A stretch of DNA of 64,000 bases from Pocillopora damicornis (taxonomy: Eukaryota): NCBI RefSeq assembly GCF_003704095.1, contig NW_020846334.1, positions 186,001 through 250,000 on the forward strand, given 5' to 3'. Positions within the stretch are counted from its first letter, which is position 1, and each line of letters starts with the position of its first letter. A program made the position numbers. Below are positions 3,001 through 42,000 of the stretch, one piece after another.

Positions 3001-6000
3001 GTTTGATTTTGTGCTGTTTTCGCAAGCCCTCGCGGTATTTCGAAGTAGATTTTGTTTCCAAAAACTTGCCACGGTTCGATGTACAGTGGATTAAGCAGTC
3101 ACTATGGGGAACGACAGGGTGACCGCTAGTCACAGGTTGACCGCAAAATACAGATTCCACAGAATAGAGGTGAATATTACAGTATTTATATGGAAAAAAT
3201 TTCGTGGCTTTTAAAACCGACCGCTTAATACAGGGTGACCGCTCAATACAGTACCGATTGATACAGGTCCACTATGTATAACCTTACGTTTGGTCACAAG
3301 TGATGGAAAATATAATACTTCGACAGAAAAGCGCGCCATTGCGGCACTACAGTGTCACAGTGTCAACGTTATGGAAAAAGTTACTTCTCCCACATCCATT
3401 TACTGAAGATGTAATGAATCTGAGAATAAGATGAGTATTTAGCATTTTTCATTGATGCAAATTAACAGATGAGAGTGCTCTTTGATTGAGTGTCGAAAAC
3501 TAGCCTGTTCAACCTGTTAAGTTAATAAAACGCAGCGAAATAGTAGCTATAGTAGCGAAGGGGTAAAAAAGCAAGAGGTTTGGGTCAGGAAAAGAACGCG
3601 ACCCGACCCAAGCCTCCCTCGTTTTCAACTACCGTGCTTCGTTTTACTGATTGAACGCCTGGAACGAGGTTCTCAATGGGGTACGGGTGTCGGCCAACGG
3701 TTAAAATTTTGGCCATTTTACGGCTAATGGCTAATATCATTCCATTGTTGTCATCAGAAGTTTTATTTACGGTCAACTTTTTCACGACTATCTGTCAAAT
3801 TGTCAATTTTTATGCCTAACGGCTAAATTTTTAAGCCTTTTAAGGTTATCGTTTCACCCCATCGAGACACTCTGGTTCAGGCTGGTCGAAAACTAAAATC
3901 AAACTTATCTCAATAGCCAATCAGAACAAAGAAAAATATCACAAGGAGCCAATGAGGAACCTAAGAATGAACACGCAAACTGCGTGAAGCGCGGGAAAAC
4001 GCGTGTAACCAAGCCAAGAGTCTTTTTACTTTTGTATCTGATTGGTTTATAACGTTCTGCCAGTTTTCGCCACCAGTCACAGAGCAATGTAGAGTAAAAC
4101 CAAAGCTATCCCGTAATACTTTTGACTTAATTAAAAATGCTCCAGTGTTTCACCTTTAATATGTTAAAAGAATCGCCCCGGAAATCCTTGTTGTTAATGA
4201 AATAAATAATCATATAATAACATAAGGCAGTTGGTATATTAATATCGGAAACAAATTCATTAAGTTAAATTCGTTGATTCAATGATTGACCTCAATGACT
4301 GGCCTCAATTGAGATTAAACTCAAGTTTGAACGTTCTCTAAAGTGTTAATTCTGAAATATAGCTATGAAGAATTTACTTCATCTGTTCGGGTTTCGGTTC
4401 GAACGAGAGCCAGGGAACTGGATCTAGTTTGGGAAGTCGAGGCTCCCTGATAACTCGACCCAGTTCTCCCCGATTGATTCTGAATATGTCAAACCTGCGC
4501 AATTTCAGTGCAAGCCGGTAGTTACTATGATCATCGATAAGGTCATGAACATTTTCCCTCGTAGCTCTGAAATTTGGCAAAGAGCAGGTAACAGTTTTAA
4601 CTCTCATAATCGAGAGAGCAGATCAGTAAGACAAGCTAGGGTTGTTTATTTTAAGGTGGCTTGATAGCTCTTTGAGTTATAAAGATCACTGTGCAGGTTT
4701 TCATGAACTGCCTGTTTGGTTCCTGATACCTTCCCCATCAGTTCCAGCGTTGACTGTGCCTTGCATAGCTAAAACGTTTTCGGGTTGCGATTGGTTATGC
4801 CTCCTATTGCAACAACGGCAAGAACCGGCAACTATAGTACACAGCAAAGACAGTGCTCCAACACAAATCCCGACGATCTTAAGAATTTTAAGGGTTTGAT
4901 CTGACAGGAAATAGGAAAAAGCAGAAAAATGGTTAGCTAGAACAGCAAAGGAGCGTGAAAGCAATTTACGTCACCAAAGCATCCTATGAGCTTTGAAAGG
5001 TTGCACCATAAGTCTGCTTTGTCGATGAACGTAAATTACAGACTTGTTCGCCGTAAGATGGCAAAACGCATTGGCTCATGCAATCATTATTTCACGCAAC
5101 ACGCACAAAACAAGCAAATGCCCGCACAGGCACGTGACAATAAACCACACGCTCCCACGCCAAAAGAAAGCTTCTTCCCAGCGGCACATTACGTAGCACT
5201 AACTGATGCTGATGACACACAACGAGCTAAAAATCGTGATGCACGTGCAAAGCTACCCGTGCACACACATTCAATATCTTTCCTGCCTTTCCTATTGCAA
5301 ATTGATCTCAGGATATTCACCTACCCTTTTTTATTTTGTAGGTGGCTTTGAACCCAGGATATTTCAACTTGCCACTCGATTTAAAAGCCACACGCAAGTT
5401 CCAAGAATCCGAGGTTATCTTCGAGGGTTTCTCTGCTCCACAGTACTTTCCAACAAGGTCGCTGGTGCTGAACATTCCATCTCGCACTTCTACATAATCC
5501 TCAGAACAGTCACTGGTCCGGGACACATTGAAAAACTCAAAAGACAATATAATTTTGGAATTAGTGTCTACACTGATAGACCAGATGCATTCTACAGAGT
5601 CGTCAGACGGCAGAGGGTAGTTGTAACTGGCCAGAGTTCCTGTCTCAGACTTCAATTTGATGTTTAAGTCCTTCGCTGTGCATGAAAACGGAGCTGGTAC
5701 TACAAGAAAACGAGATGAAGACATAGAATTATGTAAATTCGACTTTTTAAAGTGAAAGATGTTTTCAGTAAAAATGCCTTCAGTCAAAAAATAAGTTAAC
5801 ACCTTCAAATCTACAATGCGAAGTTGACAAACAGCTTCAACTGTGGTTGTCGCTAAAAAGAAAAATCAATTGTGTCCAGCCTGCGTTTTTTATAGTTCTT
5901 AGAATTTTAACGTCGTAAGGCAGTGGCCAGATTGTTAACCAAGATTGAGAATGGCGGCAACCACAGTAACAAAACTAAGTAAATTTGAAGACAATTTTCT

Positions 6001-39000: not shown

Positions 39001-42000
39001 ACATTAAGCTATCCTTCGACTCCTTTAATCTGTCTCAGTCCGACGAATGTTCTGAAGATTATGTGGAGGTACGTGACGGCCAGTTTGACACCAGTGATTT
39101 GGTAGGAAAGTATTGTGGATCACAGAAACCTTCAGCAATTACTTCGGATGACTGGGAGCTTCGCGTGGCGTTCAGGTCCAGCGGAAAGACGAAATATCCC
39201 GGTTTCAGGGCAACTTTTGAAACAAAAAGTGAGTGCAAATGTTTGTAGGTGTCAATGCGATGTTTTGATGCGACATTGGACGTTCCTCTCAGAAATCATC
39301 ACTTAGCTGGGAGGGGATGCCCAATTAGACTTGGACAGGGTTTTGAAACCTTGGCGAGCAGCATCAGAAAGGCAATCAACAACAGTAGCTATAGAGGGTC
39401 AGTTATTGTGCTACTTTTTGAAACATTGGCTAATTTACGTAACTGCTGATCAAAATAAACATTAGAACAACAAACTTAATTTCCACTTTTGAAAGGGGAC
39501 ACAATCTTCTCCATTCTGTAACACTCTAGTTCCCGTTTTTTTTATTCTTGTCTCTTTGGTGTTTGTCGACCCTGGCTAACTTGTACAAGGAACAAAGTAA
39601 ACTTTGATTATTTTCTCCCCATGCAGAGTCAACTGGAGCCATTTTAAAAATCGTGGGAATTTGCGTCGGTGCACTGGCAGCTGTATTTGGAATCACTGGA
39701 GCCTGCATAAAGTACGGCAGCTGCTGCAAGAGCGATGAAGATAGAGTTGTTCAAGGAACTTTTGACGACAAGGTAGAAGGTGTCCCTTTACAGGAAGAAT
39801 CTTCTAAAGTATAGCTGCAACTGTTATCGTCAAAGAAGTTGTGACATTCCCATTGGGGTCGCAATATTCTCGAAAGGATTTTAATTACCCTTATTTCCTT
39901 ACTTCCTTGCGTTTAACTCTTCTCTCACCTGAGGGCCAATGTTCCTTTAAAGCTTCTCTGATTCTAGAGGTTGTTTCATTCATCCATAGGCCACAAGAAC
40001 ACTATGTGTCAATTGATTTGGTCGACATATTGTGACTGTCGAATGGCTGCCTGATATTAATGTCTTGCAAAGGCGTCAACAGCCTTGCAGACACTTGAAA
40101 ATGCTGAAGAAATCCTCGCTAAAACTTGGTTACAACAGCAATCTTCCCGCTCTCAATCACCGCAGTGAGAGAGAAAAAAAATAACTTACAAAGAACTCGA
40201 AAATACCTCTCATGTAACTGGGCTCCTAGTCTGCACATTTTTAAGGTACATTCTTATTTTTTGCACCAGAAAACTCCAGCAAATATTAGTTTGAGATATT
40301 TATTTAGGAAAAAATCTCCTTCCAAAAGGTGATATCAAGTGATTCACTGGAGATTGTGTGATATCAGGAGAGTAGACATGACTTCTGATTCGCTACTTGC
40401 AAATTTGAATCACCTAAGTAGGAATAACATACGATACTTAACAAGAATAAACTAACCCTATGGTCTCAAATTAAATTTTTGATTGTTGATCTATGCGATG
40501 AAAACAACATCTTAAAAGTGCAACAACGTCAAAGTGCTAAAAAGGCACAGCTAAGTATGTCACTGATGTTCCTACCATATTATGACGTCTACGGTGATCT
40601 ATTAGAGAGATTTAGCGACGCGTCTGCGTGAAACGGCAAACGTCAGCTTTCCCTTTCACGTAAAATAGCGTGAACTATACTACTTTAGCTTCGCGTGAGC
40701 TCACGTCACTTCGGAATGGACTGGCACTAGTAAACACTAGCAATTTGCAACATTTGCAAAATGGCGGCTGAAAGACGGTAAGTACAATGTCTAATTGTTA
40801 CAAATTTACAAATCGCAAACTTTAAAATGGCTTTTCCTCTTTTTGTAATCTTATTTGAAATATAAGTTTGCTCATTTATCTTAATCTCGTTTACAGGCGA
40901 CAAGTTTGTAAACAACTTGAGCTTATGATAGGGGGGTGGGGGGAGGGTTCTGTAGAAAACTGACTGAAAATTAACTGTCAATGAAAATGAAAGTTTACCG
41001 AGACACAACAAAATCCTCCGCCGCCACCACGCACACACACACAAGCGCTAAATAACGACCAGTTTTTAGTAATTTTATTAGTCTGCCTTCTCTTACTGTA
41101 AGGAGACCCTTAGTTCTTTACTAAACAACAAAAAGTTTCGTAGGAGAACAACTTGATACCGCAGAAGCCAATTGAGAGAGAATATTGGGAAGAAGGTTGT
41201 GTTTATAGATATAACACCGGTGAAGACGTCATTGAAGCATTTTAACATCGATGTTGGTCCTTATTCATCAAATTCTAAAATAAACTTGCGTTAAAACTGA
41301 GAAGGCGTAGAGTCCAAAGCATCCTATTATTGAAGAGGCCAATTGAAATCCTGAAGCAAAAAGGCAGATTTTAGAATTACGTAGGTCGGGATTTACCCGT
41401 CGGGATTATTGATGGAGCTATATCATTACAGGGGAACCCAGGGATATGACGGCCGTTGATGCGAGGAACATAACGATCTTGAACTCAATAACGCCAAATG
41501 GAGCTCGGTCTCTCAGAAGCATAACTTGATTCACATAAGTCGCGGCTTTCAAGACAAAGACTTACTTGAAACAACAAATTAGAGCTCAGGTGTAAAGGGC
41601 GCAGGCCATAAATCCGAGCGGAAAAAACAAAGTTCTGTAACTTATAGTATGATATTAAATATATAATTTTATCGCTGCGTTCAACTTAAGCTGAGGGGGG
41701 GAGACTTTAATTCTGATAATCTTTTGGATTCGGCTGGCCGTTCAGTAAAAAACGGCTTAGCTTGGCGAACGATCTTACGAAACGAACTTGTGATTCTAAC
41801 AGCTCAAGCTTGCATTTAGAAACCAAGAATTAATGATTCAAATTATCATGACGCTTGCTTTAGTACACTCCTGATCCTCGCTCTTTCTGCAATCCGACCC
41901 ATTCGAGAAATGTCGAATTTGAAAGATGGCGTCTACGTTGAGACACTTTTAAGATGAAAATCATATTACAACACGACCTCGCCCTGGTGTGGGAGGCCCG

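What the first reader, a model, noticed from the sequence alone, without database searches (positions are those of the whole stretch)
4701..39814. Variable-length ectodomains on a fixed scaffold, with divergence rising toward the membrane-distal tip
Exon types are colinear: A = a-b-b'-c-dd-e-f-TM, C = a-b-c-dd-e-f-TM, B = c-dd-e-f-TM. Gain and loss occur only at the N-terminal end. By manual alignment the membrane-proximal CUB of A and C is about 70% identical, while the distal CUB is roughly 30% and needs gaps. Inference: a conserved stalk with a fast-evolving ligand-facing tip, as in diversifying receptor families. Gene conversion of the proximal exons is an alternative explanation.
[Added by the scan's program, not by the reader: the finding's places include an assembly gap (unread letters, written N; its length is only estimated) at 7979 to 8078, 11317 to 11425, 18859 to 18958, 25067 to 25166, 33799 to 33898. 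Whether the letters on both sides are continuous or in frame is not known: test that first.]
Basis: partly seen in the sequence, partly recalled or inferred. Interest (0 to 1): 0.7.

Follow-up and report, generated by a model that had tools for sequence, protein, structure and literature searches.

The report
Coral multi-CUB membrane protein gene trio
Three neighbouring coral genes encode membrane proteins built from five to eight CUB domains, differing only in the outermost domains; in two of the three types the domain next to the membrane changes slowest and the outermost fastest.

Summary
The window is from a stony coral, not human. Its proteins are 74-94% identical per domain to named Stylophora pistillata proteins.

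The region holds three paralogous genes: A (14206 to 4701, minus), B (18473-25352) and C (26485-39814). Each has a two-exon signal peptide, then one CUB domain per phase-1 exon (d1 and d2 share an exon), then a transmembrane exon.

- **Architecture confirmed.** A = a-b-b'-c-dd-e-f-TM, C = a-b-c-dd-e-f-TM, B = c-dd-e-f-TM. Each domain type forms its own clade across genes and species.
- **Gradient confirmed for A versus C.** Identity rises from 36% (a) to 67% (f).
- **Gene conversion rejected.** Four-fold sites in f are saturated (13 of 39 identical, random 0.26), introns do not align, trees follow orthology, and the gradient recurs between orthologues.
- **Limits.** B-type is flat and the cytoplasmic tail diverges. 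Positive selection is not shown: dS is saturated, and b versus b' gives omega 0.36.

Best reading: graded purifying selection on a cell-surface multi-CUB protein whose core is CUB f plus the outer membrane helix. It is an uncharacterised coral family of a known kind. One gap removes the start of A's dd exon.

The parts
14191..14206 (-). Gene A exon 1: ATG plus 5 codons (MIPYF) and 1 base, donor GTAAGT
   Evidence: matches the start MLPYF of orthologue P0011
13055..13090 (-). Gene A signal-peptide mini-exon (36 nt, phase 1-1)
11720..12088 (-). Gene A CUB exon a (most distal)
   Evidence: Pfam CUB 26.6 bits; AlphaFold model pLDDT 85.6 with CUB-fold matches
10543..10896 (-). Gene A CUB exon b
9724..10086 (-). 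Gene A CUB exon b' (tandem duplicate of b, about 810 nt unit)
   Evidence: duplication shared with P0011
8248..8631 (-). Gene A CUB exon c
7244..7978 (-). Gene A double-CUB exon dd (d1+d2); the 5' end, about 10 codons and the acceptor, lies in gap 7979-8078
6275..6655 (-). Gene A CUB exon e
5325..5699 (-). Gene A CUB exon f (membrane-proximal, most conserved)
   Evidence: Pfam 100.8 bits
4701..4900 (-). Gene A transmembrane and tail exon, with stop codon
18473..18488 (+). Gene B candidate exon 1 (MSFIL plus 1 base)
   Evidence: weakest of the three exon-1 calls
19879..19917 (+). Gene B signal-peptide mini-exon (39 nt)
20495..20875 (+). Gene B CUB exon c (first CUB of B)
21781..22530 (+). Gene B double-CUB exon dd
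23497..23889 (+). Gene B CUB exon e
24638..25024 (+). Gene B CUB exon f
25177..25352 (+). Gene B transmembrane and tail exon; acceptor 10 nt after gap 25067-25166
   Evidence: junction matches P0007 and P0016
26485..26500 (+). Gene C candidate exon 1 (MLFFC plus 1 base)
   Evidence: compare MLVYC in P0001
28790..28825 (+). Gene C signal-peptide mini-exon (36 nt)
34079..34444 (+). Gene C CUB exon a
   Evidence: Pfam 24.2 bits
35373..35723 (+). Gene C CUB exon b
36203..36580 (+). Gene C CUB exon c
37421..38170 (+). Gene C double-CUB exon dd
38326..38697 (+). Gene C CUB exon e
38857..39228 (+). Gene C CUB exon f
   Evidence: Pfam 109.9 bits; 93% identical to S. pistillata P0001
39627..39814 (+). 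Gene C transmembrane and tail exon, ends -SKV plus stop

Best explanation
**What it is (shown).** Three old paralogues of a stony-coral family of type I single-pass membrane proteins. The ectodomain is a string of CUB domains. Each CUB is a phase-1 cassette exon, except d1 and d2, which share one exon. The string is preceded by a signal peptide split over two small exons. It is followed by an exon encoding the membrane helix and a tail of roughly 30-45 residues.

**How the lengths vary (shown for the pattern, inferred for the mechanism).** Domain types are positional and older than the gene duplications. Length varies through tandem duplication of cassette exons (b to b') or their absence (a and b in B) between the signal-peptide exons and exon c. 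Because all introns are phase 1, any such change keeps the reading frame.

**What the gradient is (shown).** The A-C divergence gradient is a long-standing gradient of purifying selection, not gene conversion. Constraint is strongest on CUB f and the start of the membrane helix (motif ILKIVGICxG) and weakens towards the tip.

**How it probably works (inferred, not shown).**
- The conserved f-plus-helix module holds a conserved partner at the membrane.
- Most tails end in a class I PDZ-ligand-like motif, which would tie the protein to a scaffold.
- The glycan-rich distal CUBs act as a more dispensable, lineage-variable extension that sets reach or adds binding sites.
- This would be in the manner of CUB-type auxiliary subunits and co-receptors such as SOL-1 or Neto.
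For: **Gene structure.**
- Every exon is a CUB domain.
- The most divergent one, A's exon a, folds as a CUB sandwich: pLDDT 85.6, with TSG-6 and neuropilin CUBs as best matches at TM about 0.7.
- Uninterrupted 684-944 aa reading frames on 2.8-3.9 kb contigs (P0004, P0005, P0008, P0011) show spliced transcripts in relatives that carry a, b and b'.

**Positional domain types.** Each type is a clade, and within each type the subclades follow orthology.

**Against conversion.**
- Only exons align between A, B and C; no intron does.
- At four-fold sites of identical residues in f, 13 of 39 are identical between A and C. Random expectation is 0.26, and all exons fall between 0.22 and 0.46.
- A's f is 89% identical to its Stylophora orthologue and 77% to the Oculina A-type, against 67% to C's f.

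**Gradient between orthologues.**
- A versus Stylophora A: 0.77, 0.74, 0.79, 0.80, 0.80, 0.81, 0.87, 0.89 (trend p = 8e-4).
- A versus Oculina P0003: 0.52 rising to 0.77 (p = 2e-6).
- C versus Stylophora C: a 0.74, f 0.93 (p = 1e-3).
- Tree path lengths, a against f: 1.97 and 0.61 (A-C), 0.95 and 0.32 (A-P0003), 0.35 and 0.07 (C-P0001).

**Other support.**
- Pfam scores follow the same order. In A: a 26.6, b 32.6, b' 29.6, c 34, e 80, f 101 bits.
- N-glycosylation sequons per domain: a 3.6, b 3.4, d1 3.6, against e 0.7 and f 1.1.
- The helix start is conserved, cysteines follow the helix, and 9 of 11 complete tails end in [ST]-x-[VFL].
- Nested architectures starting at a, b, c or e occur in all 12 proteins that have a signal peptide.
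Against: - B-type shows no gradient. Window B versus Oculina P0007 gives c 0.65, d1 0.64, d2 0.61, e 0.68, f 0.61 (p = 0.75). Versus P0016, f is the lowest at 0.58.
- The C-type gradient is not monotonic; d1 (0.82) and e (0.84) lie below b, c and d2.
- The TM exon as a whole is only 42% identical between A and C.
- Window A ends in -GSS and P0008 in -QAI, so the PDZ-like motif is not universal.
- No expression data exist for the window's own species.
- No partner, ligand or cellular location is known. The functional part rests on analogy.
- Relaxed constraint and positive selection on the tip cannot be separated without codon data from orthologues.
Confidence: 0.7

Rival explanations
1. Gene conversion or other concerted evolution has homogenised the membrane-proximal exons of A and C, giving an apparent gradient.
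For: A and C are most alike in f (0.67) and e (0.54). The closest pair also changes along the gene: B-C is closest in c, A-C in d2 to f.
Against: - Four-fold sites in f are saturated, 13 of 39 identical against 0.26 at random.
- No intron similarity flanks e or f.
- In the f clade, A groups with A-type orthologues and C with its own orthologue.
- A's f is closer to the Oculina A-type (0.77) than to C's f (0.67).
- The same ratio of a to f distance appears at three depths of orthologue comparison.
Confidence: 0.03
2. Positive, diversifying selection drives the distal CUBs because they bind variable ligands such as microbes, symbionts or non-self tissue, as in immune-type receptor families.
For: - The distal domains evolve 2.7 to 5 times faster than f.
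- They are duplicated independently in two lineages: b/b' in the window species and Stylophora, a/a' in Oculina.
- They are rich in glycosylation sequons.
- The genes sit in a cluster of CUB membrane-protein genes.
Against: - The only unsaturated codon comparison, b versus b', gives omega 0.36; 0.2% of 500 bootstraps reach 1.
- Types a and b keep type-specific cysteine patterns in 9 of 9 and 13 of 13 domains.
- They remain recognisable clades across coral families.
- The distal CUBs score weakly against the CUB profile, as expected under relaxed constraint.
Confidence: 0.17
3. The distal exons are decaying relics, or one of the genes is a pseudogene, so the gradient reflects loss of function rather than graded function.
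For: - Weak Pfam scores for a, b and c.
- Nested N-terminal truncations occur across the family.
- Window B has long terminal branches (0.37-0.67) compared with its Oculina orthologue (0.07-0.31).
Against: - All 21 CUB exons in A, B and C are open, and all readable splice sites are canonical; one acceptor, that of A's dd exon, lies in a gap.
- Distal domains are 74-79% identical to orthologues.
- Omega for b versus b' is 0.36.
- Transcript-like contigs in relatives include a, b and b'.
Confidence: 0.05

Closest known systems
SOL-1 and dSol-1 (C. elegans and Drosophila auxiliary subunits of AMPA-type glutamate receptors)
   Same: Type I membrane protein whose ectodomain consists only of CUB domains, four in SOL-1, followed by one membrane helix (review PMC9083331, passages read).
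   Different: Here there are 5 to 8 CUBs. Orthology was not tested, no receptor partner is known, and a PDZ-like C-terminus is present here.
NETO1/2, Drosophila Neto, SOL-2, LEV-10
   Same: CUB-containing type I membrane proteins. NETO1 and NETO2 carry C-terminal PDZ-binding motifs, and their CUB domains bind channel partners (PMC9083331). Neto2 CUB is among the sequence and fold matches.
   Different: These proteins carry an LDLa domain next to the membrane and have 2 or 5 CUBs. No LDLa was found in any exon here.
Cubilin (the name sources give to the Stylophora orthologues)
   Same: Tandem CUB domains. Cubilin CUB5-8 (3kq4) is the best PDB sequence match of exon f.
   Different: Cubilin, as recalled and not tested here, has EGF repeats, 27 CUBs and no membrane helix. 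Here there is no EGF, there are 5-8 CUBs, and a membrane helix is present.
CDCP1
   Same: Single-pass membrane protein with CUB-like domains. Pfam CDCP1_CUB_6 is hit just above its cut-off by A's e (29.5 against 27) and dd (28.4).
   Different: The generic CUB profile scores far higher on the same exons. The tail here is short, whereas CDCP1's long signalling tail is recalled from memory.
Coral skeletal-matrix CUB proteins
   Same: CUB-containing coral proteins that have undergone lineage-specific duplication (PMC4890752, passages read).
   Different: Those have a single CUB domain, a threonine-rich region and no other domain, and they are secreted. They are a different family.

Membership tests
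CUB domain (Pfam PF00431) | Profile match above the curated cut-off of 21.4 bits for each proposed domain exon | tested here: met
   All 18 CUB exons of A, B and C pass. The lowest is C's a at 24.2 bits and the highest single domain is C's f at 109.9 bits.
CUB domain (Pfam PF00431) | Beta-sandwich CUB fold in the most divergent domain | tested here: met
   The A exon a model has pLDDT 85.6 and pTM 0.81 and is all-beta. Top PDB matches are TSG-6, neuropilin, PCPE-1 and cubilin CUBs at TM 0.62-0.73.
Cubilin | EGF repeats, about 27 CUBs and no membrane helix (features recalled from memory) | tested here: not met
   No EGF hit, 5 to 8 CUBs, and a hydrophobic helix exon at the end of each gene.
SOL-1-like CUB-only type I membrane proteins | Signal peptide, CUB-only ectodomain, single membrane helix | tested here: met
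   This is an architectural likeness only.
SOL-1-like CUB-only type I membrane proteins | Orthology to SOL-1 and action on an ionotropic receptor | not tested
   No SOL-1 sequence was compared and no functional data exist.
Neto / LEV-10 / SOL-2 | LDLa domain between the CUBs and the membrane | tested here: not met
   No LDLa hit in any exon; exon f joins directly to the TM exon.
Neto / LEV-10 / SOL-2 | C-terminal PDZ-binding motif | tested here: inconclusive
   9 of 11 complete tails end in [ST]-x-[VFL]. Window A (-GSS) and P0008 (-QAI) do not. Binding was not tested.
Diversifying receptor family | Omega above 1, or excess amino-acid polymorphism, in the ligand-facing part | tested here: inconclusive
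   dS is saturated between A, B and C. b versus b' gives omega 0.36. No orthologue DNA or population data were available.

The most novel reading that the evidence does not exclude
Stony corals carry a family of SOL-1/Neto-like co-receptors of their own. A conserved module, made of the proximal CUB and the membrane helix, docks on a membrane partner. The reach and specificity of the ectodomain are tuned by adding or dropping in-frame CUB cassette exons. The fast-evolving distal CUBs would recognise variable external ligands such as symbionts, microbes or neighbouring colonies.
Probability: 0.12. Interest if true: 0.6.

Novelty: new member of a known kind. Interest (0 to 1): 0.3.

Why it matters
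The trio gives a clean, internally controlled example of how a modular receptor ectodomain grows and shrinks by phase-1 cassette exons. Constraint falls with distance from the membrane, and the usual confounder, gene conversion, is excluded here.

For coral biology it corrects the 'cubilin-like' label given to the orthologues. It also points to CUB f plus the membrane helix as the part to use when looking for a binding partner.

It does not open a long-standing question. Heterogeneous constraint along multi-domain surface proteins is expected.

Tried and rejected
- **Alternative start for B.** An in-frame ATG followed by a (TTA)10 run just upstream of B's exon c looked like a new signal peptide. 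It was rejected once the family's shared signal-peptide mini-exon was found at 19879-19917.
- **Frameshift in B's signal peptide.** I briefly read one there. It was rejected because the ATG lies in the polypyrimidine tract of an acceptor, and A and C have the same mini-exon structure.
- **B's TM acceptor.** My first choice was 25189. I replaced it with 25177, which reproduces the orthologue junction.
- **dN/dS per exon between A, B and C.** NG86 dS is above 1.2 or undefined in all 20 comparisons, and YN00 failed in 19 of the 20, so no omega can be trusted there.
- **Homologue searches.** These were limited to three word-seeded searches: 10, 7 and 2 hits among 92, 170 and 944 candidates. No close Stylophora orthologue of B appeared, which is weak evidence of absence.
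- **Literature.** Two searches, for cubilin with Stylophora pistillata and for CUB domain with Pocillopora and expansion, found nothing on this family. The CUB proteins of coral skeleton proteomes are a different single-CUB family.
- **Joined spliced model.** Every query was a single exon.
- **Not available or not used.** The viral and metagenome contig collections and paper supplements were closed. Expression tables of coral cell atlases, which may bear on function, were not seen. The all-representatives protein search, the protein atlas and the complex prediction were not used.

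
Full report
**Origin of the window.** The sequence is eukaryotic, about 40% G+C, with five runs of N. Exon f of gene C is 93% identical to a Stylophora pistillata protein that its sources call 'cubilin-like'. Further relatives are from Oculina patagonica. The contig is from a stony coral close to Stylophora and is not human.

**What is there.** Stop-to-stop frames and Pfam show 18 CUB exons in three groups, each group ending in an exon with a hydrophobic helix.
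- Splice sites are canonical and every intron is phase 1.
The first holds the ATG, five codons and one base. The second is a mini-exon of 36-39 nt.
- With these the genes are A, 14206 down to 4701 on the minus strand; B, 18473-25352; and C, 26485-39814. A and B diverge from each other, with a rhodopsin-type GPCR gene between them.
- All 16 predicted junctions between CUB exons and into the TM exon reproduce the residue spacing of the orthologous proteins.
All queries were single exons.

**Gaps.**
- Gap 7979-8078 removes the acceptor and about ten codons of A's double-CUB exon. This is judged by the orthologues P0002 and P0011, and the frame across the gap cannot be tested.
- Gap 25067-25166 lies in B's last intron, with the donor 42 nt before it and the acceptor 10 nt after it.
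- The other three gaps are intronic: A's a-to-b intron, B's intron 1 and C's 5.25 kb intron 2.

The series are a-b-b'-c-dd-e-f-TM, a-b-c-dd-e-f-TM and c-dd-e-f-TM.
- A tree of 91 CUB domains places every type in its own clade, with SH-aLRT 89-100. The domains came from the window and 13 homologues. Two homologues and all partial domains were left out.
- Domain identity is therefore positional and older than the gene duplications.
- Between A and C, identity rises from 0.36 (a, 118 columns, four gaps) through 0.41, 0.42, 0.48, 0.50 and 0.54 to 0.67 (f, 123 columns, no gap).

**Conversion or constraint.** Four results speak against conversion.
- Synonymous sites are saturated everywhere, so per-exon dS cannot rank the exons.
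- The saturation itself is informative. At four-fold sites of identical residues in f, only 13 of 39 are the same in A and C, against 0.26 expected at random.
- Nothing outside the exons aligns between the genes.
- Within each domain clade the window's A groups with A-type proteins of Stylophora and Oculina, C with its Stylophora orthologue and B with the Oculina B-type.

The gradient also reappears between orthologues.
- A versus Stylophora A rises from 0.74-0.77 to 0.89.
- A versus Oculina rises from 0.52 to 0.77.
- C versus Stylophora C goes from 0.74 (a) to 0.93 (f).
- Trend tests give p from 1e-3 to 2e-6.
- Tree distances give an a-to-f ratio of about 3 to 5 at all three depths.

This is what a stable difference in rate predicts and what conversion does not.

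**Limits of the interpretation.**
- B-type proteins are flat, or least conserved at f.
- The C gradient is uneven.
- The TM exon is conserved only at the start of the helix (ILKIVGICxG) and the tail diverges.
- Positive selection is not shown. The tandem pair b/b' is the only unsaturated comparison, with dS about 0.5 and flanking intron about 70% identical. It gives omega 0.36, bootstrap 0.19-0.68.
- The distal CUBs also score weakly against the CUB profile. Even so, exon a still folds as a CUB.

**Family picture.**
- Among the 12 proteins that have a signal peptide, the architecture is always a C-terminal suffix of the series, starting at a, b, c or e.
- Extra copies occur for a (Oculina), b (window A and the Stylophora-identical transcript P0011) and e (P0009).
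- Contigs of 2.8-3.9 kb carrying uninterrupted 684-944 aa frames show that spliced transcripts with the distal exons exist in relatives.

**Likely function, by inference only.**
- The best-conserved part is CUB f plus the outer helix.
- Cysteines follow the helix.
- 9 of 11 complete tails end in [ST]-x-[VFL].
- Glycosylation sequons are concentrated distally.
- This resembles CUB-type auxiliary subunits and co-receptors such as SOL-1 and Neto (PMC9083331, passages read).
- There is no LDLa domain, and orthology to those proteins was not tested.

**Names and literature.** The 'cubilin' name reflects only generic CUB similarity. Literature searches found nothing on this family. Paper supplements were closed.

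Noticed in passing
window 16192-17229 (+): Single-exon rhodopsin-family GPCR gene (Pfam 7tm_1, 104.8 bits) lying between the divergently oriented genes A and B.
   Followed up: partly
window 42506-56426 (-): Five more CUB exons (69-94 bits) and two exons with membrane helices and long tails (48919-49314, 55195-55644). They are only 29-42% identical to the A/B/C domains, so they are other CUB membrane-protein genes in the same cluster.
   Followed up: partly
window 60138-62759 (+): Two exons of an ammonium transporter gene (Pfam Ammonium_transp, 228.8 and 96.5 bits).
   Followed up: no
window 31188-32069 (+): An open frame of 293 codons with no Pfam match, lying inside the 5.25 kb second intron of gene C.
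   Followed up: partly
window about 20434-20470 (+): An ATG followed by a (TTA)10 microsatellite in B's intron just before exon c. It is in frame and mimics a poly-Leu signal peptide.
   Followed up: yes
window 8079-8247 and gap 7979-8078: A's c-to-dd intron shows only 169 readable bases plus the gap, against 840-905 nt in C and B. The gap is probably longer than its nominal 100.
   Followed up: partly
window 4701-4720 (-): Gene A ends in -GSS, whereas A-type relatives end in -TSF and most of the family in [ST]-x-[VFL]. The PDZ-like end may be lost in this copy.
   Followed up: partly
gene B, window 20495-25352: Window B has long terminal branches in all five domains (0.37-0.67) compared with its Oculina orthologue (0.07-0.31). 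No close Stylophora orthologue was found in one search.
   Followed up: partly
proteins P0002, P0006, P0012, P0014 (database models): Several database models of relatives look mis-built. P0002 starts at c although the transcript-like P0011 has a-b-b', and it ends in an extra partial f-like CUB. P0012 reads through the donor after e. P0014 ends in a serine/proline-leucine repeat.
   Followed up: partly
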